Positions 37,133 through 54,394 of a stretch of DNA of 64,000 nucleotides are shown in pieces. Position numbers and translations under genes: made by a program. How positions within the stretch are numbered: position 1 is the first letter of the stretch; each line of letters opens with the position of its first letter. The notes beneath the pieces are model-generated. The model was given only the letters and a program-made list of their open reading frames with translations, had not been told where the DNA came from and ran no database searches. This stretch comes from a virus (Duplodnaviria > Caudoviricetes): the IMG/VR virus record IMGVR_UViG_3300024346_000004; one strand, written 5' to 3'.

Positions 37133-38606
37133 AACAATAACACCCCTACATAAAAATATAGGGGTGTTTCTTTTTTAATACCACTAACAAAAACATATAG
37201 ATAAAATAAACATCACTGAGAAGAATAATACATCCAAAAAATAACCTGAAATCTTTACAATAGAGCAATAAAATATACCAAAGAATACAAATACCCTAAA
37301 CGAATAAAATGTTGCTAGAGATACCCCTTTTTTATACTTAACACCTATAATTACCCCCGTAGTATAAATGAAATAATAAAAAATCACATAAGGAAATATA
37401 ACAAGAGACCGTAAACGAAATATAATAAAAAAATTATACAGATTAGCTTTAGGATTAGAAAGGAGCTGGGAAGTATGAAAAATAAGATAATTAGACTAAA
37501 CGTAAAAATATAATTCTTATATAGGATAATTAATAAAATTACAGTGGATAGTAAATGACATAGATAACCCAAATTCAAAATACTATATAGAAAAAAAGAA
37601 TAAAAATAAAAATCACAATGGAGACTGAGTGGAGACTAAAACCCAATTACATAAGAAAGAAACAAAATAACCCATATAACAAAAAACAAAAATTCGAGCA
37701 ATTACAATATAACAATAATTAATTTCCCTATATAAGAAAATAAAAGAAATTCACTTGGTTCTCTACTAATAACAATAAAACACATTACTACTAACTAATC
37801 ACATAGGAAACGATTGATAATAGCTATTGATACATTTTAGCTTATGAGGATAAAGATTTTCGAGTGATTATAAGATTTTCGAGCAATTATAAGAGAAGAA
37901 TAAATAATTACATATAAGGGAGAATATTTAATTTACTATATAGAAGAAATACAAATTAACCTATATGAGAAAAAGAATATTCTAAAAGATTATATTTATT
38001 ACCTAAGAACGAATAATAACTAATAGACAATAAAATAAAATCTATCCAATACTACAAAACAAAAAACAATATACTACAAATGAAGAAAAAAAAATAAATT
38101 AATACAATAGAGAAAAAACAAATAATAGAATAAATAAGAACAAATAAATATCTATGAAATAATACAATAATAACGAATAAGTGGCTTTTTAATACGGGAC
38201 GGTTAATCAGCACACATTCAAACGTCAAACAATAATCGACAGTTAAACTATAAAATTAACTGTAATTGTTAACATTCTGTGTAGCTTCAAATAATTCCTC
38301 TAAGCTTTATGTATATTTCCGAACCTATTCTTCAATACTTACTTATATGTTGTTCCGCCTTATGTTTATTTTTATTTACGTTCGATTAAAATATCCACTA
38401 ATCTTATAGAATTTCGAAGCTAAATCATAAGCCCTATTCTTCTTCTATATATTTTTGTATTCTTTTAATGTCCCTTATTATATATTATTATTTCTACACT
38501 GTATATTCTAGATACCTGCTAGACATATTTTGTATAATATTGTTACCTATGTAGAAGTGTCTATATATGTATTCTATCCTAATTTGTTTTATACCTGCAA
38601 CTTTTT
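37133..38606. other. Non-coding strand-skew switch: putative replication origin or genome-end junction
   Basis: A-rich left half and T-rich right half; gene polarity inverts here; central hairpin at 38228-38270; 19-bp tandem repeats near 37853-37893. Confidence 0.65.
37853..37893 (+). repeat. Iteron-like tandem repeat AAGATTTTCGAG(TG/CA)ATTAT x2
   Basis: 19-bp period; related copy AATTCGAGCAATTAC at 37691. Confidence 0.75.
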
Positions 38607-39173
38607 ATGTTAACCGGCAATATCCATTCTTATATTTCGAGTTCTTTTGTTAATGGTCCTGGAAATCGTTTTGTATTATGGTTTCAGGGTTGTTCTAAAG
38701 GTTGTCTCGGTTGTTTTAATCCTGAGACTTGGAACGATAGACCTGTTTCTCTTTATACTGTTCAAAGTTTAATTACCATAATAGAAAAGATTAATCCTAC
38801 TGGCATTACTATTTCTGGTGGTGATCCTTTCGAGCAATCTGAATTCCTATTAGAATTATTAAAAGAGTTATATAAGAAAGATTATAAGGATGGGATTATT
38901 GTATTTTCTGGTTTTACTATAGATGAGATTAATAGTGATAATACTATGAGGGATTGTTTAAATTATCTAGACGTTTTGATAGACGGTAGATTTGTTAAGG
39001 ATTGTATAACTAAAGATGGTTTAAGAGGCAGTAGTAATCAGAATATAATTTATTTTTCGAGTAAGGTTAAAGATCTTTTAATTGATCAAGAAGTAGAAGT
39101 AGGTTTTGATTACGTTACTGGTTTTCCTCTTATAAATAGTGAATTAATAAAGTTAGGAATTCGAGTAAAGTGA
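38607..39173 (+). CDS. Radical SAM protein, anaerobic RNR activase (NrdG)-like
   Basis: NGPGNRFVLWFQGCSKGCLGC, ISGGDP, DVLIDGRF, RGSSNQ. Confidence 0.88.
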   Translation: MLTGNIHSYISSSFVNGPGNRFVLWFQGCSKGCLGCFNPETWNDRPVSLYTVQSLITIIEKINPTGITISGGDPFEQSEFLLELLKELYKKDYKDGIIVFSGFTIDEINSDNTMRDCLNYLDVLIDGRFVKDCITKDGLRGSSNQNIIYFSSKVKDLLIDQEVEVGFDYVTGFPLINSELIKLGIRVK

Positions 39174-39745
39174 CTGAAACAAGTAAGAGTTATAATTTAA
39201 GAATTAGAGAGTGTCATTTCGAGAAGTATTTAAATGGTAAGGGAATTGATATTGGTTCTGGTCCTGATCCTTTAGTAGTATTAGATGGCACTGTTAAGAG
39301 TTATGATTTTAAGCAGGGTGATGCGAATTTTATGGAAGATCAGAAAGACAACATTTATGATTTTGTTTATTCGAGTCATTGTTTAGAGCATATGAAGAGT
39401 GTTAGAACAAGTTTATTTAATTGGTGTAGAATTTTAAAGCCTGGTGGATATTTATATATTACAATTCCAGATTTCGAGTTATATGAGAAATGTAATTGGC
39501 CGAGTAATTTTAATCTAGATCACAAATTTTCTTTTTCGAGTAATTATAAGAGAAGTGATGTTAATAGAATTAATCATTATAATATCTCCGAGGATTTAGA
39601 GCCGTTATTAAATTCGTATAATGTTAATCTAATAGAAGCTGTATTACAAGATGAAGGTTATGATTATTCTTTACCAGCTAAGATAGATCAAACTTTAAAT
39701 GGTGCTTTGGTGCAGATTAATATTATTGGACAAAAAAGATTATAA
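39170..39745 (+). CDS. Class I SAM-dependent methyltransferase
   Basis: GIDIGSG, YDFVYSSHCLEH, RILKPGGYL. Confidence 0.9.
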   Translation: MTETSKSYNLRIRECHFEKYLNGKGIDIGSGPDPLVVLDGTVKSYDFKQGDANFMEDQKDNIYDFVYSSHCLEHMKSVRTSLFNWCRILKPGGYLYITIPDFELYEKCNWPSNFNLDHKFSFSSNYKRSDVNRINHYNISEDLEPLLNSYNVNLIEAVLQDEGYDYSLPAKIDQTLNGALVQINIIGQKRL

Positions 39746-39755
39746 GGGGGATAAT

Positions 39756-40253
39756 ATGGGTAGATTAAAGAAAGTTGTTGAAGAGACTACTGTAGAAGCT
39801 GTGGAAGTTTTCGAAGATGTTGAAACTGTAGAAAACGTAGAAGTAATGGAAGATACAGTAGAAGCGTTAAGGGAGCCTGTTAATATTAGTACAGGTGAGT
39901 TTTATGCTGTTTTCGAGGATGATAGATTAATTGGATATGCTAGGGAAAATTCGAGTAGTTTAGCAAGATATCAAGAATCTAATTATAATGAGTTAAGTGA
40001 TATGTTAGAGAGATATAGTATTCCTTTCGAGAATGAGAAGGATATTTTATTTGCTAACCTTGGATCTGATGCTAATTTATATCAATCATGGGCACAGTAT
40101 CAGCATCAAACGGGAGTAGCGCCTTCTGTTCCACCTATTGTTAACTTACTAGGGTATCACGGTAAGAGACTTAATATCCAGGATCCAGAAGAAATTGTTG
40201 TTAGATCACATGCTTTTAAATATGTGTTCCAGGTTATTGAAGAACTTGATTAA
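39756..40253 (+). CDS. Hypothetical protein with a Glu/Val-rich N-terminus
   Basis: GGGGG SD before MGRLKK. Confidence 0.7.
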   Translation: MGRLKKVVEETTVEAVEVFEDVETVENVEVMEDTVEALREPVNISTGEFYAVFEDDRLIGYARENSSSLARYQESNYNELSDMLERYSIPFENEKDILFANLGSDANLYQSWAQYQHQTGVAPSVPPIVNLLGYHGKRLNIQDPEEIVVRSHAFKYVFQVIEELD

Positions 40254-40263
40254 TATAGTAGAG

Positions 40264-40470
40264 ATGACTGTTTATAGTTATAGTATTAAATTAAAATACT
40301 ATAACTATACTAATGAGTTTTTCGAGTATTTAAAAGGTAAAGAAGATAAGAATGATATTTATGATTTGCGATTTGATAACCATACAATATTTTTCTTTTC
40401 GAAGAGTAAATATACCGGCAATAAATTAATTCAAGAATTCGAGAAGAACAAATTAGAAGACATGGTATAA
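40264..40470 (+). CDS. Hypothetical protein
   Basis: Start reassigned to MTVYSY. Confidence 0.55.
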   Translation: MTVYSYSIKLKYYNYTNEFFEYLKGKEDKNDIYDLRFDNHTIFFFSKSKYTGNKLIQEFEKNKLEDMV

Positions 40471-40478
40471 TGTGTTAG

Positions 40479-40934
40479 ATGAAGCCAGATTATTTAGAAC
40501 ATAGAAATTATTTGGTTAATTATCTTTCTCTTATTTCGAGGGATAGATTATTAGCTGAAGATTTAGTTCAAAGTGTTTTAATTAATTATTGGATTAATAA
40601 ACCTGTAGTAAATAATGTTCGAGGTTATCTTAAAATGATGGCTAAAAACTCTTATATAGATTATTACAGGATTAAGAAACTTAGCATTGTAGATTTAGAG
40701 CAAGCTTATCTTATAAATAATGATGTAAATATTTCGAGAGAAGTGGAAGCTAAGGAAACGTTAAGATCTTTAAAAATCGAGATTGAAAAATTCGAGTCTA
40801 TAGATCGTGATATAATGTTATGTTTGTTAGAGGGATATAGTCTTAACGAAATAGCTGTTAATATGAATCTTAATTATAATACAGTTAAGGTTAAAGTATT
40901 TCGAGCTAGGAAGAAGTTAAGTGCTATATTATAA
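40479..40934 (+). CDS. ECF-type (group 4) RNA polymerase sigma factor
   Basis: Region 2 AEDLVQ..AKNSYIDYYR; region 4 GYSLNEIA..NTVKVKVFRARKKL. Confidence 0.88.
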   Translation: MKPDYLEHRNYLVNYLSLISRDRLLAEDLVQSVLINYWINKPVVNNVRGYLKMMAKNSYIDYYRIKKLSIVDLEQAYLINNDVNISREVEAKETLRSLKIEIEKFESIDRDIMLCLLEGYSLNEIAVNMNLNYNTVKVKVFRARKKLSAIL

Positions 40935-40945
40935 AAGGAAAAAAT

Positions 40946-41398
40946 ATGAAGATCTTTTTATCTATTGCAGCTTTATTGGCTGTTTCTAATTGTTATGCTT
41001 TAGAGTATGGTCCAGCAGCTCCACCTAAGGCACAATCATTTTTTGTCAAGCCTGGTTTTAAGGACGGCAAGATTCAGAGTGTTTCCATGGGTGTATCTTT
41101 AGATGGCCGAAACAGTAATGCTCTTCTTGTTACTAATCTTGATTCTTACAAGGTTTTTAATCGTACAGTAGAAACCGTAGCTACCGTTAGTACAGATCGC
41201 TATGGTAATAAGGCTGCTGTTGGTGCTGGTCTATTACTTCCATTAGGTGAGCATTTCGGTGTATCTCTTAAAGCTGGGGCCTATTTCGAAGGTACAGATT
41301 TAGCTGATAAGGGTCGTATTAGTAATCGTGTCGTTCCCGCAGTTACATGTAGAATCGATTTGAATAAGACACTATCCGTATTAGGTGTTCGTCTCTAA
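40946..41398 (+). CDS. Exported beta-rich protein (possible outer-membrane protein)
   Basis: Signal peptide MKIFLSIAALLAVSNCYA; amphipathic strands; ends SVLGVRL. Confidence 0.6.
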   Translation: MKIFLSIAALLAVSNCYALEYGPAAPPKAQSFFVKPGFKDGKIQSVSMGVSLDGRNSNALLVTNLDSYKVFNRTVETVATVSTDRYGNKAAVGAGLLLPLGEHFGVSLKAGAYFEGTDLADKGRISNRVVPAVTCRIDLNKTLSVLGVRL

Positions 41399-41432
41399 AG
41401 TGTAACCGTACTTAATCTGGAAATTATTATAT

Positions 41433-41747
41433 ATGATAATTTCCAGTTACACATTAAAATCTAAATGGGATCTCTGCAAAATTTGTGGAGATCCTTTTCT
41501 TACATGTACGTTTAGTAACATTTGTAAAAACTGTGAAAAATATGAAAAAGACAGAATAATAATAATAGCTAAATTAAAATTCATCTTATTATTATTTATT
41601 ATTATATATCCGATATTTGCTACAGGATTATTTTTCTTATTAGATTATTTTAAATCTAGTCTTATTCACAAGCTGGCCGGTCTATTATTTTTAATTCCGC
41701 CATTTGGATATATATTAAACAAGAAAATAAATAATACAACATTATGA
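41433..41747 (+). CDS. Zn-finger membrane protein
   Basis: CKIC..CKNC followed by two TM helices. Confidence 0.6.
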   Translation: MIISSYTLKSKWDLCKICGDPFLTCTFSNICKNCEKYEKDRIIIIAKLKFILLLFIIIYPIFATGLFFLLDYFKSSLIHKLAGLLFLIPPFGYILNKKINNTTL

Positions 41748-42358
41748 ATATTATCGTTTTATATACTCAAGCGAAATTATTAGCCCATATTGTAGGATCT
41801 TTTAAAAACGTAATAAAAGGAGATTTAATTTCTATTATCCCTTTATTAGAACAAAACATTACCGCAGCTGTTAATGAAGGTGAACTGGAAGAGATATTCA
41901 TTTTAAGATTACATAACTTAAAATATAATCTATACACAATACAAAAAGAAATAAAATATCTAAATGTATTACAGGAGAATAAAGTTATATTAGATCTTAA
42001 ACATAGATTAATACAATTCTCTAATAAGAATAAAAATAATCCTAATGTTGGTGAATCTTTTTATATAACATTAGAGGAACTGGACATTATAAGGGATTCA
42101 TTAAATTTCTATATTAATATTATGCTGGGAGATTTAGGTTCTGCTTTTAATATAGTAAAACCTTATAGAGATTTCTTCGTTGATTTTTCTATATATAATA
42201 ATCTCGCAAGTGGTTTTTTAGACAACGTTACCTTCCATAAAATAACATCAAAAAAGATATTCCGCAAAGTTAGATGGGGGTATGATATATATAGAGGATT
42301 ACTTCAGGAAGACCATAAATTAATTGGAACCTTACCTGGAATAAAAATAACAAGATGA
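41744..42358 (+). CDS. Hypothetical protein
   Basis: 204 aa, ATGA overlaps at both ends. Confidence 0.7.
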   Translation: MNIIVLYTQAKLLAHIVGSFKNVIKGDLISIIPLLEQNITAAVNEGELEEIFILRLHNLKYNLYTIQKEIKYLNVLQENKVILDLKHRLIQFSNKNKNNPNVGESFYITLEELDIIRDSLNFYINIMLGDLGSAFNIVKPYRDFFVDFSIYNNLASGFLDNVTFHKITSKKIFRKVRWGYDIYRGLLQEDHKLIGTLPGIKITR

Positions 42359-42579
42359 CATTATTAGATTTGACCGCTATTGATAGATTAATAGATTTAT
42401 ATGGAGATGACCAGTTAGTACGATTTTTAGAAAATGATAATGTGTACAGCCTTGAAGATTTCAGATTATTGTGTGAAGATAATAACTGGAATTTCTCTAT
42501 TGATGAGTTCCAAGTATCTGTCTCTGATTTCCCATTATCCCAAGAAGAACCAATTTTAGCCCTTGTAAAAAATGACTAG
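42355..42579 (+). CDS. Hypothetical protein
   Basis: 74 aa acidic ORF, operonic. Confidence 0.65.
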   Translation: MTLLDLTAIDRLIDLYGDDQLVRFLENDNVYSLEDFRLLCEDNNWNFSIDEFQVSVSDFPLSQEEPILALVKND

Positions 42580-43045
42580 CGATCTTTATCAACACGAATA
42601 TAATAACTTAAATCATTACAACCATAATCACTTGTCTAGATTTTTAGATAAGATTAATTACCCAGACCCAAGAAATGTAAACCCAAAAAACATAGATAAA
42701 AAGATTAGAGACGGTATAGTAAGAATCAATAAAAGCAATTGGGTTTGGACTGTATACTCATGTTCAGGTCATATGAATAAATTTTCTCATCCTTATATCG
42801 TATTTATTGTAGATAATAAATATAAAGGACTACTGTTAGAGAATATATATAATTCATTTAATAAAGACATTGATGATATTAACTTTCCTCTATTTGGCGG
42901 AAGAACATTTGAAATCTCTACCGGCTATTCTGATAATAAATTCTCTATGCTTTCTCTACATATATCTGGTTACAAACGAAGCCGACTAAAAGAATACCAA
43001 TCTATACTAAATAATATACTTTTGAACATTCTCCTTTCACCATAG
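42572..43045 (+). CDS. TYW3-like fold protein (paralog of 31753..32220)
   Basis: IDKKI..IN..WT..SCSGH..PY. Confidence 0.6.
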   Translation: MTSDLYQHEYNNLNHYNHNHLSRFLDKINYPDPRNVNPKNIDKKIRDGIVRINKSNWVWTVYSCSGHMNKFSHPYIVFIVDNKYKGLLLENIYNSFNKDIDDINFPLFGGRTFEISTGYSDNKFSMLSLHISGYKRSRLKEYQSILNNILLNILLSP

Positions 43046-43047
43046 AT

Positions 43048-43075
43048 ATATTATCATATGCTACATAGGATGCAA
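43048..43075 (-). promoter_or_regulatory. Inverted copy of the early sigma70 promoter family
   Basis: Minus strand TTGCAT-cctatgtagcatatga-TAATAT. Confidence 0.65.
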
Positions 43076-43191
43076 TATAATCCCTAATTTATTTTAGGGA
43101 TTTTTTGTTTTAATCCACAAGCCTAACCTCCAGTGTAACATAATAGAAATTTAGTGTTGCTAGTGTTATAGTAAATGTGATATATTAGGGC

Positions 43192-43443
43192 ATGAGAAAA
43201 ATGCGAGTGGTTTTTACAGCAGAGTTTGAAATACCAGATAATGTTGTAATTCATGACGGCGGAATATTCGAATGTGAAGGCGTAGTATTTGAACCTGAAT
43301 TAAACTTTAATTGTGTCGAAGTGGATGTTAATAATCCAGAAGAATTGATTCAGTTTCCTAATGATATCTGGTCTGTTAGTGAATATGAAATTAAACATAT
43401 TCGAGTAAATTCAACAATAGAGGTAGAGAATAATGAAGATTAA
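43192..43443 (+). CDS. Early hypothetical protein
   Basis: ATG 5 nt after TATATT; resembles the next gene (F...EIPD..V.H). Confidence 0.7.
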   Translation: MRKMRVVFTAEFEIPDNVVIHDGGIFECEGVVFEPELNFNCVEVDVNNPEELIQFPNDIWSVSEYEIKHIRVNSTIEVENNED

Positions 43444-43669
43444 TTTTTCAGTTACCGGCACTATGGAAATTCCTGATGATGCAGTTTTTCATCAAGATAT
43501 TTTAAATCAATTATATGCAGTTGAGTTTAATAATAAAATGTATATGCTTCAGGTATGTTTAGTTGCTGAAAGTCCTAATGGTGAATATGAAATGTTACAC
43601 CAATATGACGACATGGAAAAACATGATATTAAAAATGTTCGTTATGATTCAGCAGAGTTTAGCGAATAA
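43433..43669 (+). CDS. Early hypothetical protein
   Basis: GAGG SD; MKINFSVTGTMEIPDD. Confidence 0.7.
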   Translation: MKINFSVTGTMEIPDDAVFHQDILNQLYAVEFNNKMYMLQVCLVAESPNGEYEMLHQYDDMEKHDIKNVRYDSAEFSE

Positions 43670-43701
43670 AATATAGCCCAGAAAATAATCTGGGCTTTTT
43701 C

Positions 43702-43730
43702 TTGCTATCGTATGTAACAGGTGATACTAT
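43702..43730 (+). promoter_or_regulatory. Early sigma70 promoter
   Basis: TTGCTA-17-TACTAT with TG extension and TGTAACAGGTG spacer. Confidence 0.75.
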
Positions 43731-43762
43731 TCTTTGTTGGTGATTTTGATTAGGAGAATAAA

Positions 43763-44416
43763 ATGCCGAACTGGGTAATGAACGAACTAACCTGCATCTT
43801 CCAAACTAAGGAAGAGTGCGATTCTTTTATGAGCAAGGTAGATGAAGATAATTTATATCATTCTTTCTTCCCTATGCCTGAGATTTTGAGCGAAACACAA
43901 AGTCCTGATGTTAATGTAAATGCATTGATTCTTGATTACAATCGGGAAACAAATTCTACAGCAATGGGTCTCACTGAAATTATCAACAGTGGTCATTCTT
44001 TGTTTACAAGTATTGCACAACAGGCTCTCAAGAATCAACAAGCACAAATCGCTACTGGATTCACTAACTGGTACGATTGGTCTGTTGATAATTGGGGTGT
44101 CAAGTGGGATGCTTCTCAAGTTATAGTAAAAAAACTACCTGATTTCAATACAGTAATTTATTCTTTCAATAGTCCTTGGGATACTCCAGAGAAATTTGTA
44201 GAAGGATTGTCTAAACTGTATCCTAATGTTGTATTCGAGATGGTATCGGGTTCTATTGAAAATGATAACCATTATGAGTTTACCTGTAAGGATGGCAAAC
44301 TTGAAATAACCTGTTGCTATGGTTCATTTCGAGAAGCCGTAGAATGTGGTAAATGGGGCGGTATGGCTGAATGGGCTGAAGTATTTGAGGAGAGTGAAGA
44401 AAGTGACGCTGAGTAA
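43763..44416 (+). CDS. DUF1281 / YubB ferredoxin-like protein
   Basis: MPNWVMNEL..WYDWSVDNWGVKWDA..FNSPWDTP. Confidence 0.85.
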   Translation: MPNWVMNELTCIFQTKEECDSFMSKVDEDNLYHSFFPMPEILSETQSPDVNVNALILDYNRETNSTAMGLTEIINSGHSLFTSIAQQALKNQQAQIATGFTNWYDWSVDNWGVKWDASQVIVKKLPDFNTVIYSFNSPWDTPEKFVEGLSKLYPNVVFEMVSGSIENDNHYEFTCKDGKLEITCCYGSFREAVECGKWGGMAEWAEVFEESEESDAE

Positions 44417-44612
44417 ACTTATCGCAGAACTCCAGAAAATTAAAAAAGAGTATGGAGACGTTGATTGTGTCCTCTCTATTGACACATCTGATGCTTTTAA
44501 TGAGACTAACCTTCTTGATGTTGTAGTAAATAAATATGAAGCAATGGACACTAATGATGGTTATGTCTATAGTGTATGTCTTCACGGTGAACTGACCCAA
44601 CAAGAAGACTAA
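44403..44612 (+). CDS. Hypothetical protein
   Basis: GTG start; TLSKLIAELQKIKKEYGDV. Confidence 0.65.
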   Translation: MTLSKLIAELQKIKKEYGDVDCVLSIDTSDAFNETNLLDVVVNKYEAMDTNDGYVYSVCLHGELTQQED

Positions 44613-44620
44613 AAGATATT

Positions 44621-44659
44621 GGGGAGATGCTTGCATCTCCCCTTATCATATGTTATAAT
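44621..44659 (+). promoter_or_regulatory. Hairpin-embedded sigma70 promoter
   Basis: GGGGAGATGC-TT-GCATCTCCCC contains TTGCAT; 17 nt to TATAAT. Confidence 0.75.
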
Positions 44660-44664
44660 AAGCC

Positions 44665-44862
44665 ATGGAAAACCTTAAGTGGATATCAGCAATGTCAGAA
44701 CGATTGAGAGATGAACTTTCAAAAGAGTATGATGACGAAACTAAAGATTTAATTATTAGAGCATTTCGTAACGGGCTATTCCAAAATCCCGGTATTGTGG
44801 AAGAATTAAAATCTTCTTCTCTAATTGAATCAGATTATTTCGAGGATGCAGATGAAGATTGA
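44665..44862 (+). CDS. Hypothetical protein (leaderless candidate)
   Basis: ATG 5 nt after TATAAT. Confidence 0.65.
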   Translation: MENLKWISAMSERLRDELSKEYDDETKDLIIRAFRNGLFQNPGIVEELKSSSLIESDYFEDADED

Positions 44863-45073
44863 AAAATTTATCTATATGGCTGATGGCTTCTATGTTTATA
44901 AAATGGAAGATGGATATGCAGTCAAAGACCAATTCGGCTATACATTAAAAACAGCCAAGACAGTTAAGACTTGCGAGAGATATGTCCAACTACAATTACA
45001 AACAAGAAGAGTAGCAGAAAGATATGCAATTGAAAAAATTAATGACGAACACAAAAAAAATCGAGCAAGTTAA
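44852..45073 (+). CDS. Hypothetical protein
   Basis: GAGG SD before MKIEKF. Confidence 0.65.
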   Translation: MKIEKFIYMADGFYVYKMEDGYAVKDQFGYTLKTAKTVKTCERYVQLQLQTRRVAERYAIEKINDEHKKNRAS

Positions 45074-45103
45074 AGAACTAAAAGAACAAGGTATAATTTA
45101 AAT

Positions 45104-45352
45104 ATGTTGCCTATAATCAGTGTATTAATTTTATCTTCCTTAAACCCGATTAAGAATTTCGTATCATTAAAAACTTATATCTCTGAGAATGCTAAGATTC
45201 ATTGTCAAGTATATTTTATTGATGAAAATATCGCAGACTATCCTAGAGTAAATATAATCGAAAAATCCAAAGATGATTTTTTTATATATCTAGATTCTAT
45301 TGGGGTAGAACACAAACAACTAGGCGGATACTATTTTTTTAAGAAGAAATAA
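45104..45352 (+). CDS. Small exported protein
   Basis: Hydrophobic N-terminus; ATG 6 nt after TATAAT. Confidence 0.55.
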   Translation: MLPIISVLILSSLNPIKNFVSLKTYISENAKIHCQVYFIDENIADYPRVNIIEKSKDDFFIYLDSIGVEHKQLGGYYFFKKK

Positions 45353-45453
45353 TTCACAATGATGTATATTATTTTATTTGATATTATTGTAACAATTGTT
45401 ATACTTTTTGTTATTACTAGGTTGAAATCTAGATTGCGGTGATATAATACCTT

Positions 45454-46350
45454 ATGAACCTCTCCTTGTGTTGTATATCTAATGTCTTGGCTGAACAGGG
45501 ATATAAATTCCGCACCATGACATATAAATCTTTTTCTTCCAAACCGAGAGAGGAATCATTAGAAAAGTTATCTTCTATAATAAGTAATAATTTTTCTGTT
45601 GCTGAGAAGATAGTAAAGCATTGTTCTTCTTCTGGTATTAAAGGTTATCGTTTGTCTTCTGATTTATGTCCAGTAATTAAGCATCCTGATGTTATGTTAA
45701 ATTTAGAAGATTTGCCTAACTATGGATTTATTAAGTATGAGATAGATAAATTAAAAAGAACTATTAAAGAAACAGGTATTCGTGTTTCTGCTCATCCATC
45801 AGAATATATTACTCTTACTTCTGATGACCCTGTGAAAGTAAATCATTCTATTGTTGATTTGGAATTTCATGGGGAGATATTTGATAGATTAGAATTATCC
45901 CAAACGTATTATAATCCACTTAATATCCATGTACGAAAAGAAGGCGAAGCAGATGCATTAGCCAAAACATTCATGGATAATTATAATAAGTTATCTGACA
46001 GTGTAAAGAATAGACTTGTATTAGAAAATAATGATACAGGTAATACTTGGACTGTTGCTAATCTAAAGAAATATTTTTATTCTTCTCACGGTATTCCAGT
46101 AACATTTGATAATTTACATCACGAAATGTTAAATCATGGAACATCTTATTATGATGCTTTTTATGATGCTCTTTCTACTTGGACAGTTCAGCCTTTATTC
46201 CATTACAGTGAAGGAAAGAACGGTACAAGAGCGCACAAGGATATGGCGGAGCATTTACCTACACATTATGATGAAGATGTAATGTTTGATGTAGAGCTTA
46301 AGAGTAAAGACTATGCTATACTGGATATGTTGAGGAAAAACAATGGATAA
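45454..46350 (+). CDS. uvsE: UV DNA damage endonuclease (UvdE/UvsE)
   Basis: LCCI, YRLSSDL, RVSAHPSEY, RLVLENND, FDNLHH, HYSE, RAHKD, ELKSKD. Confidence 0.93.
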   Translation: MNLSLCCISNVLAEQGYKFRTMTYKSFSSKPREESLEKLSSIISNNFSVAEKIVKHCSSSGIKGYRLSSDLCPVIKHPDVMLNLEDLPNYGFIKYEIDKLKRTIKETGIRVSAHPSEYITLTSDDPVKVNHSIVDLEFHGEIFDRLELSQTYYNPLNIHVRKEGEADALAKTFMDNYNKLSDSVKNRLVLENNDTGNTWTVANLKKYFYSSHGIPVTFDNLHHEMLNHGTSYYDAFYDALSTWTVQPLFHYSEGKNGTRAHKDMAEHLPTHYDEDVMFDVELKSKDYAILDMLRKNNG

Positions 46351-46564
46351 AGTAATCTCGCAGTTAAAATCTTTTGATATCGTAAATAAGAATGAAGGTT
46401 TACAGACACAATCTATTTCATTCAGAGACAAAGATAATAATCTCCATATGATGATTCGAAATAGGATGACTTTTGATTCCTGTTCTCTTTATAGCAATGT
46501 GGATGGTGAGAATGTTAATATTGTAATTCCTAGAATCCATTTTGACACATATTGGAATTTCTAA
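46343..46564 (+). CDS. Hypothetical protein
   Basis: Overlaps the uvsE stop; GAGG SD. Confidence 0.6.
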   Translation: MDKVISQLKSFDIVNKNEGLQTQSISFRDKDNNLHMMIRNRMTFDSCSLYSNVDGENVNIVIPRIHFDTYWNF

Positions 46565-47078
46565 TGTGGATATTACATTAAAAGAATTATATGATAGATT
46601 AAATAATGAACCTTGGGGATGGGCAGTCTCTCCTATTTTAAATACAATAGGCGGGTCAGGCTTATTCCCCACTGTTGCTTTCTTCTTGTTAAAAGAACAT
46701 AAAGCAATATTAGGTTTAGGCGATAGAAATGAATCATCTGTCTTCGCATTACCAGATTTAGATTTGTCATCCACAGAAGCAACAAAATTATCTGTAAATA
46801 TGATGCAGTTAACCGCATTTGAAAAAGAAGCAGACGGTGTTGCTATTATTGGTGTGGGATACAAAGACGATGATACAGAAGAATATACCGCTTATTGTAG
46901 AATAGAAATGCCTAACAAACATTATTTATCTAAAACAAACAGCAATATAAAGAATAATAAATTAATATTCAACTTATCTAATCTATTCAATTTTATCGAA
47001 TATGATAATTTAAACTTAGATATGACATACTCCAGAATATTACCAAATAACTATATTGAAATAAATCCAGAAATTTGA
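46542..47078 (+). CDS. Hypothetical protein
   Basis: 178 aa ORF, TTG start. Confidence 0.6.
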   Translation: MTHIGISNVDITLKELYDRLNNEPWGWAVSPILNTIGGSGLFPTVAFFLLKEHKAILGLGDRNESSVFALPDLDLSSTEATKLSVNMMQLTAFEKEADGVAIIGVGYKDDDTEEYTAYCRIEMPNKHYLSKTNSNIKNNKLIFNLSNLFNFIEYDNLNLDMTYSRILPNNYIEINPEI

Positions 47079-47084
47079 TACACT

Positions 47085-47321
47085 ATGCAAGAATACAAAT
47101 TCTTAGTGGCTGGAACTATGAAGTCTAATCTAAAACCTCATAAAGACGAAAATGGGAATGTTATGTTAGAAGATGAATGTGGGAATTTATATCTCCCATG
47201 CTTAGGTGTAGTAAAATTAGATTCAAATAATAAAGAACATTTTATTAATGAATCTATACTAAACTCTATTGGTCTTGAATCAATAGAATATAATCAGAAA
47301 ACAGGAATCTATGGGAAATAA
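47085..47321 (+). CDS. Hypothetical protein
   Basis: 78 aa; weakly similar to 43433..43669 (F.V.GTM..Y..CL). Confidence 0.6.
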   Translation: MQEYKFLVAGTMKSNLKPHKDENGNVMLEDECGNLYLPCLGVVKLDSNNKEHFINESILNSIGLESIEYNQKTGIYGK

Positions 47322-47673
47322 TTATATCACTTACAATTCAAAAGGTGCTAAACCACAACCTGAAAGAATCGGAACTCATGCTAAACTAAATAGAGTAAGA
47401 TTAATTTATAACCAAAGAGTTCGTGAATTAAATTATAATAACGTTTCTGTATGCGATGTTATTACACAGAATGGCTACGTTATATCTTATCATAATCTAC
47501 TAACAATTTTATCAAGAGGAACGATGAACGCAAATCATATTAAACAATTGGCAAAAGCAATACAAGTAGATGAACATATGCTAGCAGAAGCCTGTATTAA
47601 AACATACAATAATTGGAAAAATAAAATAGTAGAAGACTATGGTGATGTTGACCAGTTTATAGATAACTTTTAA
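47311..47673 (+). CDS. Putative HTH DNA-binding protein
   Basis: ISYHNLLTILSRG..IKQLAKAIQV, XRE-like pattern. Confidence 0.55.
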   Translation: MGNNYITYNSKGAKPQPERIGTHAKLNRVRLIYNQRVRELNYNNVSVCDVITQNGYVISYHNLLTILSRGTMNANHIKQLAKAIQVDEHMLAEACIKTYNNWKNKIVEDYGDVDQFIDNF

Positions 47674-47718
47674 ATTATAAGAGAGACAATAATATGTCTC
47701 TCTTTTTTTGTCCCTACC

Positions 47719-47746
47719 TTGCAATGTGTAGCATATGTGGTAATAT
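47719..47746 (+). promoter_or_regulatory. Early sigma70 promoter
   Basis: TTGCAA-tgtgtagcatatgtgg-TAATAT; near-identical copy at 51517. Confidence 0.75.
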
Positions 47747-47766
47747 ATGTGTGAAGGGATTTTATT

Positions 47767-49767
47767 ATGATAGCAGAAACAACCAACAATGTTATTATTC
47801 GTAGTAACAATAGCGTAGAGACATTTTTCTCCATTAAAGAAGAGAATACAGCGCATATTTTCTCAATTCTCAGGGGACAACTATATTCTGATAAGATAAT
47901 GGCTATTATTCGTGAATACAGCACGAATGCCTTAGATGCTCATGTTGCTTCTGGTATTACAAAGCCTATCAACATTAGCCTACCGTCTTATTGGGGCGAT
48001 GGTAAGTTTGTAGTTCGTGATTATGGCACTGGTTTGTCCGATGATGATATTAAAAATGTCTTTGCATCCTATGGCGAATCTACAAAGCGAAATACAAATA
48101 ATCAAGTAGGTATGCTTGGTCTGGGTAGTAAATCCGCTTTTGCATATACTAGCACATTCCTTATTACCTCTTATCACAATGGTATTAAAAATGTATACAA
48201 TGCTTTTATCGATGAATCCAATAAAGGTGTAGTATCGCTCGTTTCATCTTCCGAAACAGATGAAACTGGATTAGAAATTACAATCCCAATAAAAGCACAA
48301 GACGCTAAAATATTATCTGATAAATGTTATTTCTTCTTCCGATATTGGGATAATATTCCTACCTTCAATAATGATAATATCGTCCGGCAGATTAACACAT
48401 TCAAGTCTTCATTCAAAACCCTAGAAGGCAATAACTGGTATATTGTTAAAAAGCACTATGGTGAACCGACTCTTATCGTTCATATGGGAAATATCGCTTA
48501 TCCTGTATCTACTGAAAATATTAATCTAGAATCTGATGATAGAAAAATATTAGACCAAAACGGTTACACTATTCATCTTAAAGCAGAAATTGGTGATGTT
48601 ACAAATTCAGCGTCTAGGGAATCATTAGAATTAAATGATAAAACCCAAAAATGGATTATCAACGCTATCAATAATATCAACGTGGAAGTGCAAAAAGTAA
48701 TACAGCAGAAGGTTACTAAATGCCGTAGTATCTTTGAAGCAAAATCAATCTATTATGATGTTTCGTTTGCAAGTATGGGAATTCCGTCTTATAAATATAA
48801 TGCTCATACTATAACAAATAATAATCTTTCATTAGACGGAGCGAAAGTAAAAGTATATTATAGTACTCTTGCTAATCGGGCTAGAATTCAAAAATATATT
48901 ATTTGCCAATCGAATACAGTCTATTATGTTGCTAGTCCTTGTACTCCAGAATATACTATTAAACAAAGATTAATCCAACATCTAGGTGATAGTGAAAAGC
49001 CTACATTAATATATTTCTCATCTGATGCAAAAGCGCAAGAATTTATTAATAGTCCAGATATGATTGGAGCAAATCTAGTTCATGTCAAAACCTTACCTGC
49101 TGTTCAATCGGTCAAATCCAAAACACCGAGAGTAGCAATGGCAGATGCAGAATATTATTCTTTCAATAGATATGGTAGTACTAACAGCGACCATTGGAAA
49201 GTTGCGAAAGAAGTAGACTTGGATGAACAGCGAATTTATGTTGTTATTTCCAGATTCTCCCCTGAACGCAACGGATTGAAATTTGATATCACTAACAGCA
49301 CTATTAACGATTTAGAACAATATGGTATTAAAAATATCATCGGTGTTAAACCAAAACATATTAAATCTGTAGGTGATTCTTGGCTTAGTCTTACAGAAGC
49401 GTTAAAGAAAAGTGCAGACGAACTATATTATAATAATGAACAGGAGATTAATAAACTCTTAGAAGCAGAACGTGTAGATGATTTATTCAAGTCCATTCAT
49501 AGATATAAAACGTCAAATACTAGTATCACAAATCCTGAATTGAAATATATTATGGAATTGCTTGATTTCGCTGATAATGATTACAAAAGCGCAAATGCTC
49601 TTCATAATATTAAAATGATAAAAGCGTATATTAATTATAATATTCCATACGAACCTTACATTGTTAAAGAAAAACAAGAAGTTCTAATGAAGGATGAAAA
49701 GATTAATATTATCTCCCAATACATTAGAAGCCCATTTTCAATATATAATCAAATAATGGAAATGTAA
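47767..49767 (+). CDS. rIIA: rIIA-like protein (GHKL ATPase)
   Basis: LYSDKIMAIIREYSTNALDAH, RDYGTGL, STK, GMLGLGSKSAFAY, MGNIAYP, SRESLE. Confidence 0.9.
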   Translation: MIAETTNNVIIRSNNSVETFFSIKEENTAHIFSILRGQLYSDKIMAIIREYSTNALDAHVASGITKPINISLPSYWGDGKFVVRDYGTGLSDDDIKNVFASYGESTKRNTNNQVGMLGLGSKSAFAYTSTFLITSYHNGIKNVYNAFIDESNKGVVSLVSSSETDETGLEITIPIKAQDAKILSDKCYFFFRYWDNIPTFNNDNIVRQINTFKSSFKTLEGNNWYIVKKHYGEPTLIVHMGNIAYPVSTENINLESDDRKILDQNGYTIHLKAEIGDVTNSASRESLELNDKTQKWIINAINNINVEVQKVIQQKVTKCRSIFEAKSIYYDVSFASMGIPSYKYNAHTITNNNLSLDGAKVKVYYSTLANRARIQKYIICQSNTVYYVASPCTPEYTIKQRLIQHLGDSEKPTLIYFSSDAKAQEFINSPDMIGANLVHVKTLPAVQSVKSKTPRVAMADAEYYSFNRYGSTNSDHWKVAKEVDLDEQRIYVVISRFSPERNGLKFDITNSTINDLEQYGIKNIIGVKPKHIKSVGDSWLSLTEALKKSADELYYNNEQEINKLLEAERVDDLFKSIHRYKTSNTSITNPELKYIMELLDFADNDYKSANALHNIKMIKAYINYNIPYEPYIVKEKQEVLMKDEKINIISQYIRSPFSIYNQIMEM

Positions 49768-49773
49768 CAAATG

Positions 49774-49816
49774 ATGACAGGAGGGCTTGCATCCCTCCTG
49801 TCATATGATATACTAT
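49774..49816 (+). promoter_or_regulatory. Hairpin-embedded sigma70 promoter
   Basis: ATGACAGGAGGG-CTTGCAT-CCCTCCTGTCAT, then TATACT. Confidence 0.75.
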
Positions 49817-49834
49817 TCTTGAAAGGAAATTAGT

Positions 49835-51106
49835 ATGGAACCTTCATTCACTTGTAATCCCGCCCCATCATCCGGATTCCTCACCGTGTTCATTGATTCT
49901 GAACAGTACACCATTACAGCGGAGAACGTAAACTTTCGTAATGCTATCAAGTTTCTCTCCGAAAAGAATTGGGAGGAACTGAAATTCGTTCTCAACCCTA
50001 CTCTTAAGTTTAATTCCCTCTACGCACAATATGAGAATATTATTGTTAAAGACGGCAATGTAACAATCGATGGGGAAATGGTAAACGGCATTATCGCATC
50101 TCGTATTATTAATCTCATGGCTAATAATATCGACTGTACACCGATTTTCAAGTTCATGACCCGACTACAATTAAATCCTAGCAAAAGAGCAGTGGATGAA
50201 TTGTATACATTCTTAGAGCATAGGAATTTGCCCATTACATCCAATGGCACAATTCAAGCCTACAAAGCAGTGAGAGCAAATTACACCGATTGTCATACTG
50301 GAACGTTTAATAATACGGTTGGTAATACTCTTCAAATGCCTCGTAACAAGGTCGATGATAACAAGGACGTAGGATGCTCCCACGGCTTCCATGCAGGGAC
50401 ATTTGATTACGCCAAAGACTTTATGCCTGAAGGCGGTCATCTGCTCATCGTGGAAATCGACCCTGCTGATGTTGTAAGTATTCCAACAGATTGTAATTTC
50501 CAGAAATTGCGTACCTGTAAATATAAGGTTACACAAGAATATAATGTAACCTTGGATGAAAATAAAATTCAGGATTCATATCTGGAAACAGACAATGATA
50601 CTTATGTTAATCAGAAATGGGAAAACAAACCATTAATGATGGATGTAATATCTGTATCCGATGTTGTTAATCTTCTTGACAAATGGGGAGAAGATGAAGC
50701 AGTACAAGATATTAAAAAAATATCCCCGACAGAAGATGTAATGCCTCTGGGTGTATTAAAAGATACTATATCTGAAAACCTCTTTGATGAACTAATGGAA
50801 GAATTCGAGGAGCAAGACCCTGAAGAATTCGAGCCGGAAGAACAAGACTCCGAGGAATTCGAGGATGATGAGGATGAGGATTCTTACGAGGAGATTACTG
50901 TAGACCTATCATCTCATATTGATATGAAGGCTACATTAAAGAACCTTGATGAAGCACAATATGTTAAGCTGAAGAACGCATTGGAAAAGGAATACAAAGA
51001 TTTCGAGTCTGTTCAAATGGGAGAAGTATTAAAATATATTGATTCCATCTATGACGATTCAGATTATATTTTCGATATCCTTCTGCAATATAAAGTAGAC
51101 GCATAA
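49835..51106 (+). CDS. rIIB: rIIB-like protein with an acidic C-terminal extension
   Basis: NPSKRAVDELYTFL, AYKAV, MPRNKVDD, CSHGFHAG, DVVSIPTD, KLRTCKY; adjacent to rIIA. Confidence 0.9.
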   Translation: MEPSFTCNPAPSSGFLTVFIDSEQYTITAENVNFRNAIKFLSEKNWEELKFVLNPTLKFNSLYAQYENIIVKDGNVTIDGEMVNGIIASRIINLMANNIDCTPIFKFMTRLQLNPSKRAVDELYTFLEHRNLPITSNGTIQAYKAVRANYTDCHTGTFNNTVGNTLQMPRNKVDDNKDVGCSHGFHAGTFDYAKDFMPEGGHLLIVEIDPADVVSIPTDCNFQKLRTCKYKVTQEYNVTLDENKIQDSYLETDNDTYVNQKWENKPLMMDVISVSDVVNLLDKWGEDEAVQDIKKISPTEDVMPLGVLKDTISENLFDELMEEFEEQDPEEFEPEEQDSEEFEDDEDEDSYEEITVDLSSHIDMKATLKNLDEAQYVKLKNALEKEYKDFESVQMGEVLKYIDSIYDDSDYIFDILLQYKVDA

Positions 51107-51114
51107 AGAATTTC

Positions 51115-51155
51115 GAGGGAGATTGCTTGCAGTCTCCCTCTTTCCATGTTACACT
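51115..51155 (+). promoter_or_regulatory. Hairpin-embedded sigma70 promoter
   Basis: GAGGGAGATTGC-TT-GCAGTCTCCCTC; TTGCAG-17-TACACT. Confidence 0.7.
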
Positions 51156-51160
51156 ACATT

Positions 51161-51529
51161 ATGATTCACTACCTCAAGAACTATGATACTAGCCTTGAAG
51201 AACGCAAGGATGATATAGAATATTTAAAATCTTATGTTCTAGACACATCCAAGTTGTATCATGTAGCGTCAGGTAATATAGCCTTCCCTGAGAACGACAT
51301 CATATCCCCGAAGAGATTGTGGATTGAATCACTATGCCTCTTCACCGATTCAGACATCCCGTTCTATGAAAGAAATATAATCACCCTATACCATTCCAAC
51401 CCAATAGGAATTAAATATGGTGATGTGATTGGGAATAATAAAATAGGATACGCTCTACGAATCCCATACCCAAATATATTCTTCCCAATTAAAATGATAG
51501 ATTTCTCATTCGACCCTTGCAACCTGTAG
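51161..51529 (+). CDS. Hypothetical protein (leaderless candidate)
   Basis: Start moved to the ATG 5 nt after the -10 box. Confidence 0.6.
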   Translation: MIHYLKNYDTSLEERKDDIEYLKSYVLDTSKLYHVASGNIAFPENDIISPKRLWIESLCLFTDSDIPFYERNIITLYHSNPIGIKYGDVIGNNKIGYALRIPYPNIFFPIKMIDFSFDPCNL

Positions 51530-51560
51530 CATATGTGATAATATATGTGTGGAGGAAATA

Positions 51561-52250
51561 ATGGAACCAAATCAAAACATCATCGAGAAGATTAAGAAAC
51601 TACTCGCCCTTTCAGCATCCCCTAATGAGAACGAAGCATCCACCGCCCTGAGAATGGCAATGGATATGCTCTCTAAACATAACCTCTCTATGACAGAAAT
51701 CAACGTAGAGAAAAAAGAATCTGTAGAACACGAAGAAGTAAAGTTCACCGGCAAGAGATTTTCTACATGGCGAACAGAATTGCTTAACTCTGTATCTGAT
51801 GCTCACTATTGTCACATCCTAAAAGTATCTGGCACTGGAGTATATTATATTATCGGCAAGCAAACGAACAGACAAGCAACTATCTTGATGTTTACATACT
51901 TAGCCAATGTTGTAGAATTTGAATGCAAAAGTCATATGGCTAGCCTGTCCCTTACCAAACAAGAAGGCAAGACATATGCTAACAGTTTCAAACTAGGCAT
52001 GGTTCATAGACTACGACAAAGATTGATGGAAAAGAAGAATTCTATTATCTTAGAGTCAAAGTCCAATGCTCTTATTAAAGTAGACCCATATACGCTTTCT
52101 AAGGCTGAAAACAACGACTACATAAGAAGCAAGTTTAGAGTAACACAACAGCAGGAGAGCAACAGTAGAATCAACGGTAGTGCTTATGCTCAAGGCGATA
52201 GAGCAGGTAATAGAGTTGGGCTTAATGGCTCTAGAGCGATAACAGCTTAA
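51561..52250 (+). CDS. DUF2786-domain protein
   Basis: IIEKIKKLLALSASPNENEA..A..MLSKHNL; GGAGG SD. Confidence 0.85.
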   Translation: MEPNQNIIEKIKKLLALSASPNENEASTALRMAMDMLSKHNLSMTEINVEKKESVEHEEVKFTGKRFSTWRTELLNSVSDAHYCHILKVSGTGVYYIIGKQTNRQATILMFTYLANVVEFECKSHMASLSLTKQEGKTYANSFKLGMVHRLRQRLMEKKNSIILESKSNALIKVDPYTLSKAENNDYIRSKFRVTQQQESNSRINGSAYAQGDRAGNRVGLNGSRAITA

Positions 52251-52360
52251 TAATAAAAACCTAATAGAAGGAGAGGCTAATACCCTCTCCTTATTTTTTT
52301 TAAAGGATTATTCCCTAAGCAACAGCCAAAAATAACAATATTACTCTTTGGAGATTACAT

Positions 52361-53317
52361 ATGGCTTTTGTATATGACCCGGCAACAATATTATCAATCA
52401 CTACAAATATAGGTAATGCGGATGCGACATTACAGGCAGAGGTTAATACTCTTCCTTCTACTTATATCATTGGAACTGTATCTGTTAGTAATACAGTAGT
52501 AACAGGAACAGGAACAACATGGCAAGTATCACCCTTTTTATCAGGGGCTAGAATTGGATTCGGTAGTACTAACCCAGATTTAATTTCTACTTGGTATGAT
52601 GTAACAGTGATTAATACAAATACACAAATCACATTATTATCCTCTGCTGGTATTATTGGTTCTGGTTCCTCCTATGTATTACAACAGAAAAGAAGCGGAT
52701 TAAAGCTTGGAACTGAAAATAGATTAACAGTAGCAGATTGTATTGCTGATAATAATATTGTTAATGCTGATTTTGATAGTAGCACAATATTAGCACAGAG
52801 CATGAGAACATCAGAAAACGCATTGTCCAGCACTTTGTCTTCTGTTTACGCATCTTATCAAACAGCATTAGATACATATGTTAACGCTAATAAATCAGCA
52901 ACAGTAAGAAATTATTATAATTCCTTATCCGTAGAAAGATCAGTAGCATTTACAGAAAATTATCGTAGTTTCTATAGAAGAATTAAATCAGAAGAATTGA
53001 TTGTAAAATTATATTCTAATACCAAATCCGTAGGTGTCTGGGGTTCTACTGTTAACCACTACTCTACTACTAATATGCTTGCTACTCTGCTGGAAGTTAG
53101 AACAGGGTCTCTCATCGGTGCTTCTGATGTTGTTGTTACCCTAGTGCCAATCAAATCAGATGGAACTAACGATTCACCAAAGACTTTAAATATACCAGCA
53201 ACAACAGCAAATAAAACTCAATACGCAATCAATGATACTACAAAATATAAAGGAATATTTTCTATTGGAATCACAGGCGGAACCAATGGAGATATTATTG
53301 AAGTTTGGATTAAATAA
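52361..53317 (+). CDS. Probable virion structural / fibre-like protein
   Basis: T/S/G-rich GTVSVSNTVVTGTGTTW; AAAGG-N20-CAAAAA late-type promoter. Confidence 0.6.
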   Translation: MAFVYDPATILSITTNIGNADATLQAEVNTLPSTYIIGTVSVSNTVVTGTGTTWQVSPFLSGARIGFGSTNPDLISTWYDVTVINTNTQITLLSSAGIIGSGSSYVLQQKRSGLKLGTENRLTVADCIADNNIVNADFDSSTILAQSMRTSENALSSTLSSVYASYQTALDTYVNANKSATVRNYYNSLSVERSVAFTENYRSFYRRIKSEELIVKLYSNTKSVGVWGSTVNHYSTTNMLATLLEVRTGSLIGASDVVVTLVPIKSDGTNDSPKTLNIPATTANKTQYAINDTTKYKGIFSIGITGGTNGDIIEVWIK

Positions 53318-53504
53318 AATAATATAGTATTACATCCTAAACCCTTATATTATTTTTAATATAGGGGTTTTTCTTTACCTAACCACCAGCACAAAATAAT
53401 ACGAATATCTCAAAATATCTGCTAATTGTCCTTGCATTGTCTGTAGCATTTGATACTATAGGACATCCAACCAATCTGGGCGGAGAACTTTGGGAGAAAA
53501 AAAG

Positions 53505-54176: not shown

Positions 54177-54188
54177 TCTGGTAATATT

Positions 54189-54269
54189 AGTTGTCGCTGA
54201 TATACAAAATACTAAAAGAAAGTAAACCTTGCTTTAAAAGTTTTGTGCGATAAAATATCAGCGACAACT
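54189..54269 (+). ncRNA. Putative hairpin ncRNA
   Basis: 15-bp closing stem AGTTGTCGCTGATAT/ATATCAGCGACAACT immediately after a TTGACA..TAATAT promoter. Confidence 0.5.
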
Positions 54270-54388: not shown

Positions 54389-54394
54389 TGGTTT

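What the first reader, a model, noticed from the sequence alone, without database searches (positions are those of the whole stretch)
37693..40905. Strand-polarised TTCGAG hexamer written through five genes next to the switch
Seen: 21 plus-strand TTCGAG counted by eye in 3.2 kb (37693, 37859, 37878, 38636, 38829, 39056, 39160, 39218, 39370, 39473, 39535, 39912, 39950, 40026, 40321, 40438, 40535, 40618, 40733, 40791, 40900) and no CTCGAA, versus about 0.5 expected at 30% GC. It occurs in different reading frames (TTC-GAG, TCG-AGT, CGA), so it is a DNA-level signal. It starts as tandem iterons in the core, recurs in smaller clusters (50.8-51.1, 60.9-63.1 kb), and I noticed none left of 37.6 kb. 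Inference: oriented binding sites for an initiator, terminase or translocase (KOPS/Chi-like), or methylation sites (TCGA core) analogous to GATC at oriC.
Basis: seen in the sequence. Interest (0 to 1): 0.8.

Follow-up and report, generated by a model that had tools for sequence, protein, structure and literature searches.

The report
One-way DNA word marks phage end
A widespread family of uncultured freshwater jumbo phages writes one six-letter DNA word (TTCGAG), on one strand only and straight through its genes, most densely at what appears to be the physical end of the genome; it looks like a directional landmark for handling that end, and the protein that reads it is unknown.

Summary
Confirmed and wider than reported. 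There are 21 plus-strand TTCGAG and no reverse copy in 37,693-40,905; 18 of 25 synonymous opportunities are used, against about 1% outside. The window is part of a ~360-kb jumbo phage. 44 relatives show the same field beside the same radical-SAM gene (758 vs 14 copies). Sites turn over, and polarity follows the DNA strand, not the mRNA (54 vs 0 in minus-strand genes). Contig depth roughly doubles at ~38.0-38.1 kb in three studies, which points to a genome end starting a terminal repeat of at least 10 kb. The field peaks just inside it. Not supported: TCGA methylation, TTCGAG as iterons (the conserved iterons are AGTGGAGAC), and host Chi/KOPS mimicry (no polarity in three candidate Armatimonadota hosts). 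Best reading (0.45): an orientation signal for the phage's own end-processing or packaging machinery; an entry role is the main rival. The scan noted a like gradient on other DNA (CGGGAG, Streptomyces phages; e1-5404545), which I verified in phage Satis.

The parts
37693..40905 (+). Dense core of the polar TTCGAG field (21 copies, no reverse copy)
40906..63067 (+). Tail of the field: 15 more plus-strand copies in clusters (43.4-44.8, 50.8-51.1, 55.3, 60.9-63.1 kb); continues beyond the window to 68.2 kb
   Evidence: 17 of 94 synonymous opportunities used
37618..37637 (+). Two (A/G)TGGAGACT repeats 11 bp apart; 1-5 copies, often 11 or 22 bp apart, 0.5-1.4 kb upstream of the radical-SAM gene in most relatives; GC skew flips here
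37893..38372 (.). Inferred physical genome end / left boundary of a long terminal repeat (interpolated at about 38,000-38,080)
   Evidence: per-contig depth step in runs X7, X8, X10; interpolation
37851..37893 (+). 19-bp tandem pair, each unit carrying TTCGAG; not seen as a conserved element in relatives
38607..39173 (+). NrdG-like radical-SAM gene (4 sites), first gene after the core in the four longer relatives examined and the anchor gene for the clade survey
   Evidence: Pfam Fer4_12 1e-33; phrog_626
39170..39745 (+). SAM-dependent methyltransferase (class I fold; 4 sites)
   Evidence: Pfam Methyltransf_11/23
39699..40253 (+). Unknown protein (probable start 39,756; 3 sites); 41% homologue in relative L007
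40195..40470 (+). Small unknown ORF (2 sites)
40479..40934 (+). ECF-type sigma factor (5 of 5 possible sites used)
   Evidence: Pfam Sigma70_r2/r4_2; phrog_1740

Best explanation
TTCGAG (context WWTTCGAG, weaker variant TTAGAG) is an asymmetric DNA landmark laid as a density gradient around the left physical end of a jumbo-phage genome with a long direct terminal repeat. SHOWN: DNA-level polarity, selection, clade-wide conservation with site turnover, a peak just right of the conserved iteron core. INFERRED from read depth: the genome end and the repeat. INFERRED, untested: a phage-encoded protein of the end-processing machinery (small terminase or a repeat-duplication factor) binds the word in one orientation on concatemer junctions. 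Rising site density then marks for a directional motor where the repeat boundary is to be copied and cut, with the phased GTGGAGAC repeats setting the exact position.
For: Depth of near-identical contigs left vs right of ~38 kb: X10 53-63 vs 106-131, X7 12-15 vs 22-27, X8 7-8.5 vs 11-15. The relative's TerL is closest (22-28%) to enzymes that include Stanwilliamsviridae, whose records carry DTRs of 11,214 and 734 bp. Aligned on the iterons, density peaks at +500 to +1,250 (5-9/kb) with a same-orientation shoulder of ~1/kb out to -4 kb. If the end lies at the same place in those relatives, these sites are outside the first-entering end, which suits a junction-acting reader. The field strand is depleted outside the field (19 vs 44 expected, P=1e-5; other strand 37 vs 48; between strands P=0.04). 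The same word is kept at 41-95% protein identity and in a 44%-GC relative, which fits a phage-encoded reader. Sites are kept above neutral (15/20 vs 6.7; 10/13 vs 3.4).
Against: No reader identified and no binding shown. The end is inferred from assembled-contig depth, not raw reads; two strains that differ left of 38 kb could mimic it, and the right boundary of the repeat was not seen. The end was not located in the relatives that have the left shoulder. Known terminase sites (cosB, pac; own knowledge) are short and local, not spread over 30 kb. TerL relatives Wofford and Comrade have DTRs but no such field. During packaging the motor would cross one copy of the field early without cutting, which needs headful coupling (inference).
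Confidence: 0.45

Rival explanations
1. Entry signal: the field marks the first-injected DNA and is read by a virion-delivered protein (translocase or protective coat) moving inward, analogous to T5 first-step transfer.
For: The densest sites lie just inside the inferred end, in small early-type genes (rIIA/rIIB, UvdE), and the motif points inward. In this genome and G002 there is almost no left shoulder. Satis has the same inward geometry at its small-gene end. T5-like phages inject the terminal repeat first (PMC10644984).
Against: Many relatives carry 10-23 same-orientation sites up to 9 kb left of the core. No FtsK in G001. A loading signal predicts depletion of the opposite orientation, not of the same one.
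Confidence: 0.25
2. Host-motif mimicry: CTCGAA/TTCGAG is the host's Chi or KOPS, accumulated at the end to tame AddAB or to recruit FtsK, as Chi is in phages LLS and MD8.
For: Terminal, one-orientation Chi clusters are published (PMC12315714). A fixed word across the clade suits a conserved host factor. Candidate hosts have FtsK.
Against: In 400-kb samples of three Armatimonadota genomes the word is 50%, 58% and 61% on the G-rich strand, against 50, 53 and 58% expected (z <= 1.3). The small (2.3-2.9 Mb) candidate genomes show only ~750-800-aa UvrD-size hits to AddA. The phage relative encodes its own RecA-like protein (by motif only). The true host is not known.
Confidence: 0.12
3. Replication-origin accessory: the iteron core is an origin, and TTCGAG sites load or orient replication proteins; the depth step reflects unidirectional replication.
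For: 11-bp-phased repeats and a conserved GC-skew flip at the core; sites on both sides of it.
Against: Skew largely follows gene direction. No phasing of TTCGAG (vector strength <= 0.06). A flat ~2x step in three environments fits a terminal repeat better. An origin and an end may coincide.
Confidence: 0.1
4. Target of an asymmetric methyltransferase, restriction system (type III/IIG/BREX-like) or nicking enzyme, as decoy or as programmed one-strand nicks like those of T5.
For: A non-palindromic 6-mer with A at position 5 resembles BREX/IIG sites (own knowledge). T5/BF23 carry nicks in one strand, and strand bias evades type III systems (PMC10644984). DNA methyltransferases lie in or near the field.
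Against: Restriction specificities are highly variable (own knowledge), but the word is fixed across 44 relatives. The neighbouring methyltransferases differ between lineages (24% identity). Avoidance explains polarity, not enrichment.
Confidence: 0.05
5. RNA-level signal (endoribonuclease site or UUCG-like element) in early transcripts.
For: In this genome all 18 coding copies are on the sense strand.
Against: In minus-strand ORFs of relatives, 54 copies are antisense and 0 sense; copies also lie in the non-coding core.
Confidence: 0.03

Closest known systems
Terminally clustered Chi sites of lambdoid phages LLS and MD8, and of P1 (PMC12315714)
   Same: Short word, one orientation, inside genes, concentrated near one genome end, under positive selection (LLS 20 vs 3; MD8 32 vs 0).
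   Different: [quoted passage not shown] Here the density is about ten times higher (1 per 150 bp vs 1 per 1.9 kb), no host polarity was found, and the phage is a jumbo with its own replication genes.
KOPS / SRS read by FtsK / SpoIIIE (own knowledge)
   Same: Asymmetric short word, orientation matters, density gradient toward a target site.
   Different: KOPS flip orientation at dif and are strongly leading-strand biased on chromosomes. Here orientation does not flip across the core, no host bias was found, and no phage FtsK was found.
Terminase recognition repeats: lambda cosB/cosQ, P1 pac hexamers, T7 CCTAAAG arrays beside the terminal repeat (own knowledge; a literature search for the T7 word found nothing usable)
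   Same: Oriented short repeats beside the cut site of a phage genome.
   Different: Those are confined to about 0.2 kb of mostly non-coding DNA at fixed positions. This field runs for up to 30 kb through genes and its sites turn over.
Polar CGGGAG gradient of Streptomyces phage Satis (MH576962; scan note e1-5404545, checked here)
   Same: Hexamer ending in GAG, pointing inward from a DTR end, 20-44 copies per 10 kb near the end vs 0-3 elsewhere on that strand.
   Different: Different word, 1,049-bp DTR, unrelated phage (only sugar epimerases and one small protein shared). It encodes an FtsK-like protein, which this clade lacks. Undescribed in the papers searched.

Membership tests
Chi site (RecBCD/AddAB) | Over-represented and leading-strand polarised on the host chromosome | tested here: not met
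   Three candidate Armatimonadota genomes, z <= 1.3, observed/expected 1.0-1.3; the true host is unverified
Chi site (RecBCD/AddAB) | One orientation near a dsDNA end of the phage | tested here: met
   (end inferred from depth)
Chi site (RecBCD/AddAB) | Attenuates the host helicase-nuclease | not testable with these tools
   needs biochemistry; AddA-size hit in G004, not in the three small genomes
KOPS/SRS | Strong leading-strand skew on the host chromosome | tested here: not met
   50-61%
KOPS/SRS | Orientation inverts at the target site | tested here: not met
   same strand on both sides of the core
KOPS/SRS | Cognate FtsK-type translocase | tested here: inconclusive
   none in G001 or G002, present in candidate hosts
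Iteron origin | Tandem, helically phased repeats in a non-coding AT-rich core | tested here: not met
   TTCGAG unphased and dispersed (median gap 142 bp); met instead by GTGGAGAC
Dam-like palindromic methylation cluster (GATC at oriC, P1 pac) | Palindromic core enriched whatever the flanks | tested here: not met
   TTCGAA 2/20, ATCGAG 1/12, TTAGAG 6/14 vs TTCGAG 18/26
Terminase recognition repeats (cosB/pac type) | Located at the physical genome end | tested here: met
   depth step in three studies; inferred, not read-level
Terminase recognition repeats (cosB/pac type) | Few sites at fixed positions within a few hundred bp | tested here: not met
   184 sites at 21 aligned positions in 43 orthologous genes; field up to 30 kb
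Terminase recognition repeats (cosB/pac type) | Bound by the small terminase | not testable with these tools
   TerS not identified; a 226-aa Cys-rich ORF precedes TerL in G001, not examined
Long direct terminal repeat phage (T5/SPO1/Wofford type) | About 2x coverage over a bounded multi-kb block | tested here: inconclusive
   left boundary seen, doubled to at least 48 kb; right boundary beyond the stretch laid

The most novel reading that the evidence does not exclude
Large DTR phages from unrelated lineages (this probable Armatimonadota-infecting jumbo clade with TTCGAG; Streptomyces phage Satis with CGGGAG) independently use a kilobase-scale, gene-overwriting polar code read by a phage-encoded DNA-tracking machine to find or handle one genome end. 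This would be a phage-internal counterpart of KOPS/Chi that has not been described.
Probability: 0.35. Interest if true: 0.85.

Novelty: new variant of a known kind. Interest (0 to 1): 0.68.

Why it matters
How phages with long terminal repeats define, duplicate and deliver their ends is a long-standing open question. A strongly selected, one-way word that peaks at the end and constrains the codons of early genes gives a concrete cis-element to test. Satis, a cultured phage with the same geometry, makes the test practical. The pattern also lets one predict termini and the first-entering region of uncultured jumbo phages from sequence alone.

Tried and rejected
1. Host polarity first looked strong in the match list (long all-plus runs). 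The fetched sequence showed this was a listing artefact (G004 first 20 kb: 17 plus, 14 minus). 2. One octamer containing the word (AGTTCGAG, 23:2) tops the list in G005 only. It does not match the phage context (WWTTCGAG) and is one of thousands tested, so it was not pursued. 3. A triple-TTCGAG pattern scan of viral contigs returned mostly unrelated repeats. 4. Polar hexamers in other UvdE-bearing phages (GAATCC, AGGTTT, CGAGCC) were protein tandem repeats. 5. No helical periodicity of sites. 6. Promoter scan at chance level (30 vs 27.9). 7. Pfam terminase models missed the TerL; it was found by motif and PHROGs. 8. No FtsK and no candidate reader shared with Satis. 9. G001 is broken at a tandem repeat in a long gene, so its contig ends say nothing about termini. 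10. More metagenome contigs end within 700 bp upstream of the radical-SAM gene than downstream (15 vs 6); this is weak, since AT-rich variable DNA also breaks contigs. 11. The RNA run X18 gave only short low-depth pieces and was not used. 12. Literature searches for TTCGAG, Armatimonadota jumbo phages, and polar terminal motifs found no description. 13. L368, a relative with the radical-SAM gene but no field and no core, may be a relocation; unresolved.
Full report
OBSERVATION. All 21 listed positions are exact. The window holds 36 plus-strand TTCGAG, all at or right of 37,693, and one CTCGAA. The window lies in a 165,921-bp virus record estimated 46% complete. 42 of its 45 plus-strand copies fall in window 37.7-68.2 kb. 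The five genes (radical SAM, methyltransferase, two unknowns, ECF sigma) carry 18 copies in all three frames. Synonymous-codon shuffling gives 2.3 +/- 1.4 (maximum 8 in 5,000) and genome-wide codon usage gives 0.5. 18 of 25 positions where the protein sequence allows the word use it, against 5 of 524 outside. The signal is real and is not a codon or skew effect.

THE PHAGE. Related contigs include a 358-kb near-complete genome, G001. It has portal, head protease, major head protein and TerL genes and, by sequence inspection, DnaE, DnaB, RecA and gyrase genes. G001 and G002 carry a prepilin-type protein whose best matches in GTDB genomes are Armatimonadota, 44-49% over the full length. The host is therefore probably in that phylum; this is an inference, and the gene is not in the half-genome that holds the window. 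Holders are lake, estuary and marine metagenomes.

CONSERVATION. Every close relative carries the field. G001 has 46 plus vs 1 minus copy in the 21-kb locus, and G002/G003 have 24 vs 0. 44 distinct metagenomic relatives sum to 758 vs 14 within -2 to +3.5 kb of the radical-SAM gene, and a 44%-GC relative has 27 vs 5. More distant radical-SAM homologues in other gene contexts lack it. Positions turn over: 184 sites at 21 aligned positions in 43 orthologous genes. Yet sites are kept above neutral expectation in 79-91% identical relatives. The context is WWTTCGAG (position -1: T 77%, A 21%, C 0%). TTAGAG is a second polar variant (446 vs 67; 6/14 opportunities vs 18% background), whereas TTCGAA and ATCGAG are not saturated. 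The palindrome TCGA is therefore not the unit.

DNA, NOT RNA. In 45 minus-strand ORFs of 120 aa or more inside the fields of relatives, 54 copies lie on the field strand (antisense) and none on the sense strand. Outside the field the same strand is depleted: 19 vs 44 expected in three genomes, other strand 37 vs 48; the difference between strands is modest, P=0.04.

WHERE IT SITS. I laid contigs of three independent DNA studies on 28-48 kb. Near-identical contigs left of ~38 kb had depths 53-63, 12-15 and 7-8.5; those to the right had 106-131, 22-27 and 11-15 (table 8). Bridging contigs interpolate the step to about 38,000-38,080. A flat step of 1.6-2.1x in three studies is the usual signature of a terminal repeat present twice per virion (established knowledge). 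It is contig-level evidence, and strain mixture is not excluded. The relative's TerL is most like a group that includes Stanwilliamsviridae, whose records show DTRs of 11,214 bp (Wofford) and 734 bp (Comrade), though without a polar field. Aligned on it, GC skew flips from about -0.3 to +0.3. TTCGAG peaks at +500 to +1,250 (5-9 per kb), with a same-orientation left shoulder of about 1 per kb in many lineages but not in this one.

HOST TEST. A Chi protecting the left end predicts CTCGAA on the host leading strand; a KOPS pulling it in predicts TTCGAG there. In 400-kb samples of three Armatimonadota genomes, TTCGAG was 50, 58 and 61% on the G-rich strand, against 50, 53 and 58% expected from composition. 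Neither prediction is met, with the caveat that none of the three is known to be the host. G001 has no FtsK.

MECHANISM. Shown: an asymmetric, selected, clade-wide DNA word forming a one-way gradient centred on a conserved non-coding core. Inferred: the core holds the left genome end. Most likely (0.45), a phage-encoded component of the end-processing or packaging machinery reads the word on concatemer junctions. That accounts for a fixed word, for sites on both sides of the boundary, and for depletion of that strand elsewhere. An entry role for a virion-delivered protein (0.25) fits the inward orientation and the sharp left edge in this genome. Host mimicry (0.12), origin accessory (0.10), modification or nicking (0.05) and RNA (0.03) are weaker. 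No reader was identified.

COMPARISON. The nearest published case is the terminal, one-orientation Chi cluster of lambdoid phages LLS and MD8 (PMC12315714). This field resembles it in geometry but fails the host-polarity criterion, so it is not filed as Chi. It also fails the KOPS, iteron and Dam-cluster tests, and it is far larger than known terminase sites. An earlier scan note on very large Streptomyces phages (e1-5404545) was checked in Satis: CGGGAG points inward from the right end at 20-44 copies per 10 kb over the last 40 kb, against 0-3 elsewhere on that strand. Avoidance of Shine-Dalgarno-like words could contribute to the depletion there. The two phages share no candidate reader. No paper describing either field was found.

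VERDICT. Observation confirmed; interpretation partly supported; new variant of a known kind (oriented terminal motif clusters) with an unknown, probably phage-encoded reader. Interest 0.68.

Noticed in passing
genome G000 149.9-160.1 kb (window coordinates 65.2-75.4 kb, beyond the window; L006): About 15 copies of a ~70-bp cassette (palindromic core, A-rich tract, terminator-like hairpin) between small genes, changing orientation near 155.9 kb; core not found in G001 or G002.
   Followed up: partly
window 37618-37637 and relatives L341-L401: Conserved 11-bp-period (A/G)TGGAGAC repeats at the GC-skew flip: candidate origin or terminase site in its own right.
   Followed up: partly
L053:2193-3086 (G001) and G002: Phage-borne prepilin-type protein of the Armatimonadota family, the main host clue.
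   Followed up: partly
G000, G001, G002 genome-wide: GTCGAC is absent from all three genomes (8 expected in G001) and GATC is under-represented (713 vs 1,182 in G001), although D12-class adenine methyltransferases are encoded.
   Followed up: no
L055:16951-18235 and L054:13855-15139 (G001): Two methyltransferase-nuclease-like gene pairs (D12 MTase with PD-(D/E)XK; N6/N4 MTase with IceA-family protein) at the edges of the field.
   Followed up: no
window 47767-51106: rIIA/rIIB pair inside the putative terminal repeat, conserved in the longer relatives.
   Followed up: no
L368: A relative with MWY-leader genes and the radical-SAM gene but no TTCGAG field and no iteron core; TAGGTT 7:0 in 4.5 kb, possibly chance.
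   Followed up: partly
L552:12001-14000 (Streptomyces phage Wofford): Local cluster of TGTCAC (16 plus, 7 minus) just inside the unique region next to the 11.2-kb DTR.
   Followed up: no
L428:17389-18339: An unrelated 26%-GC phage with UvdE carries a prepilin-type protein that looks like the Planctomycete form (from memory).
   Followed up: no
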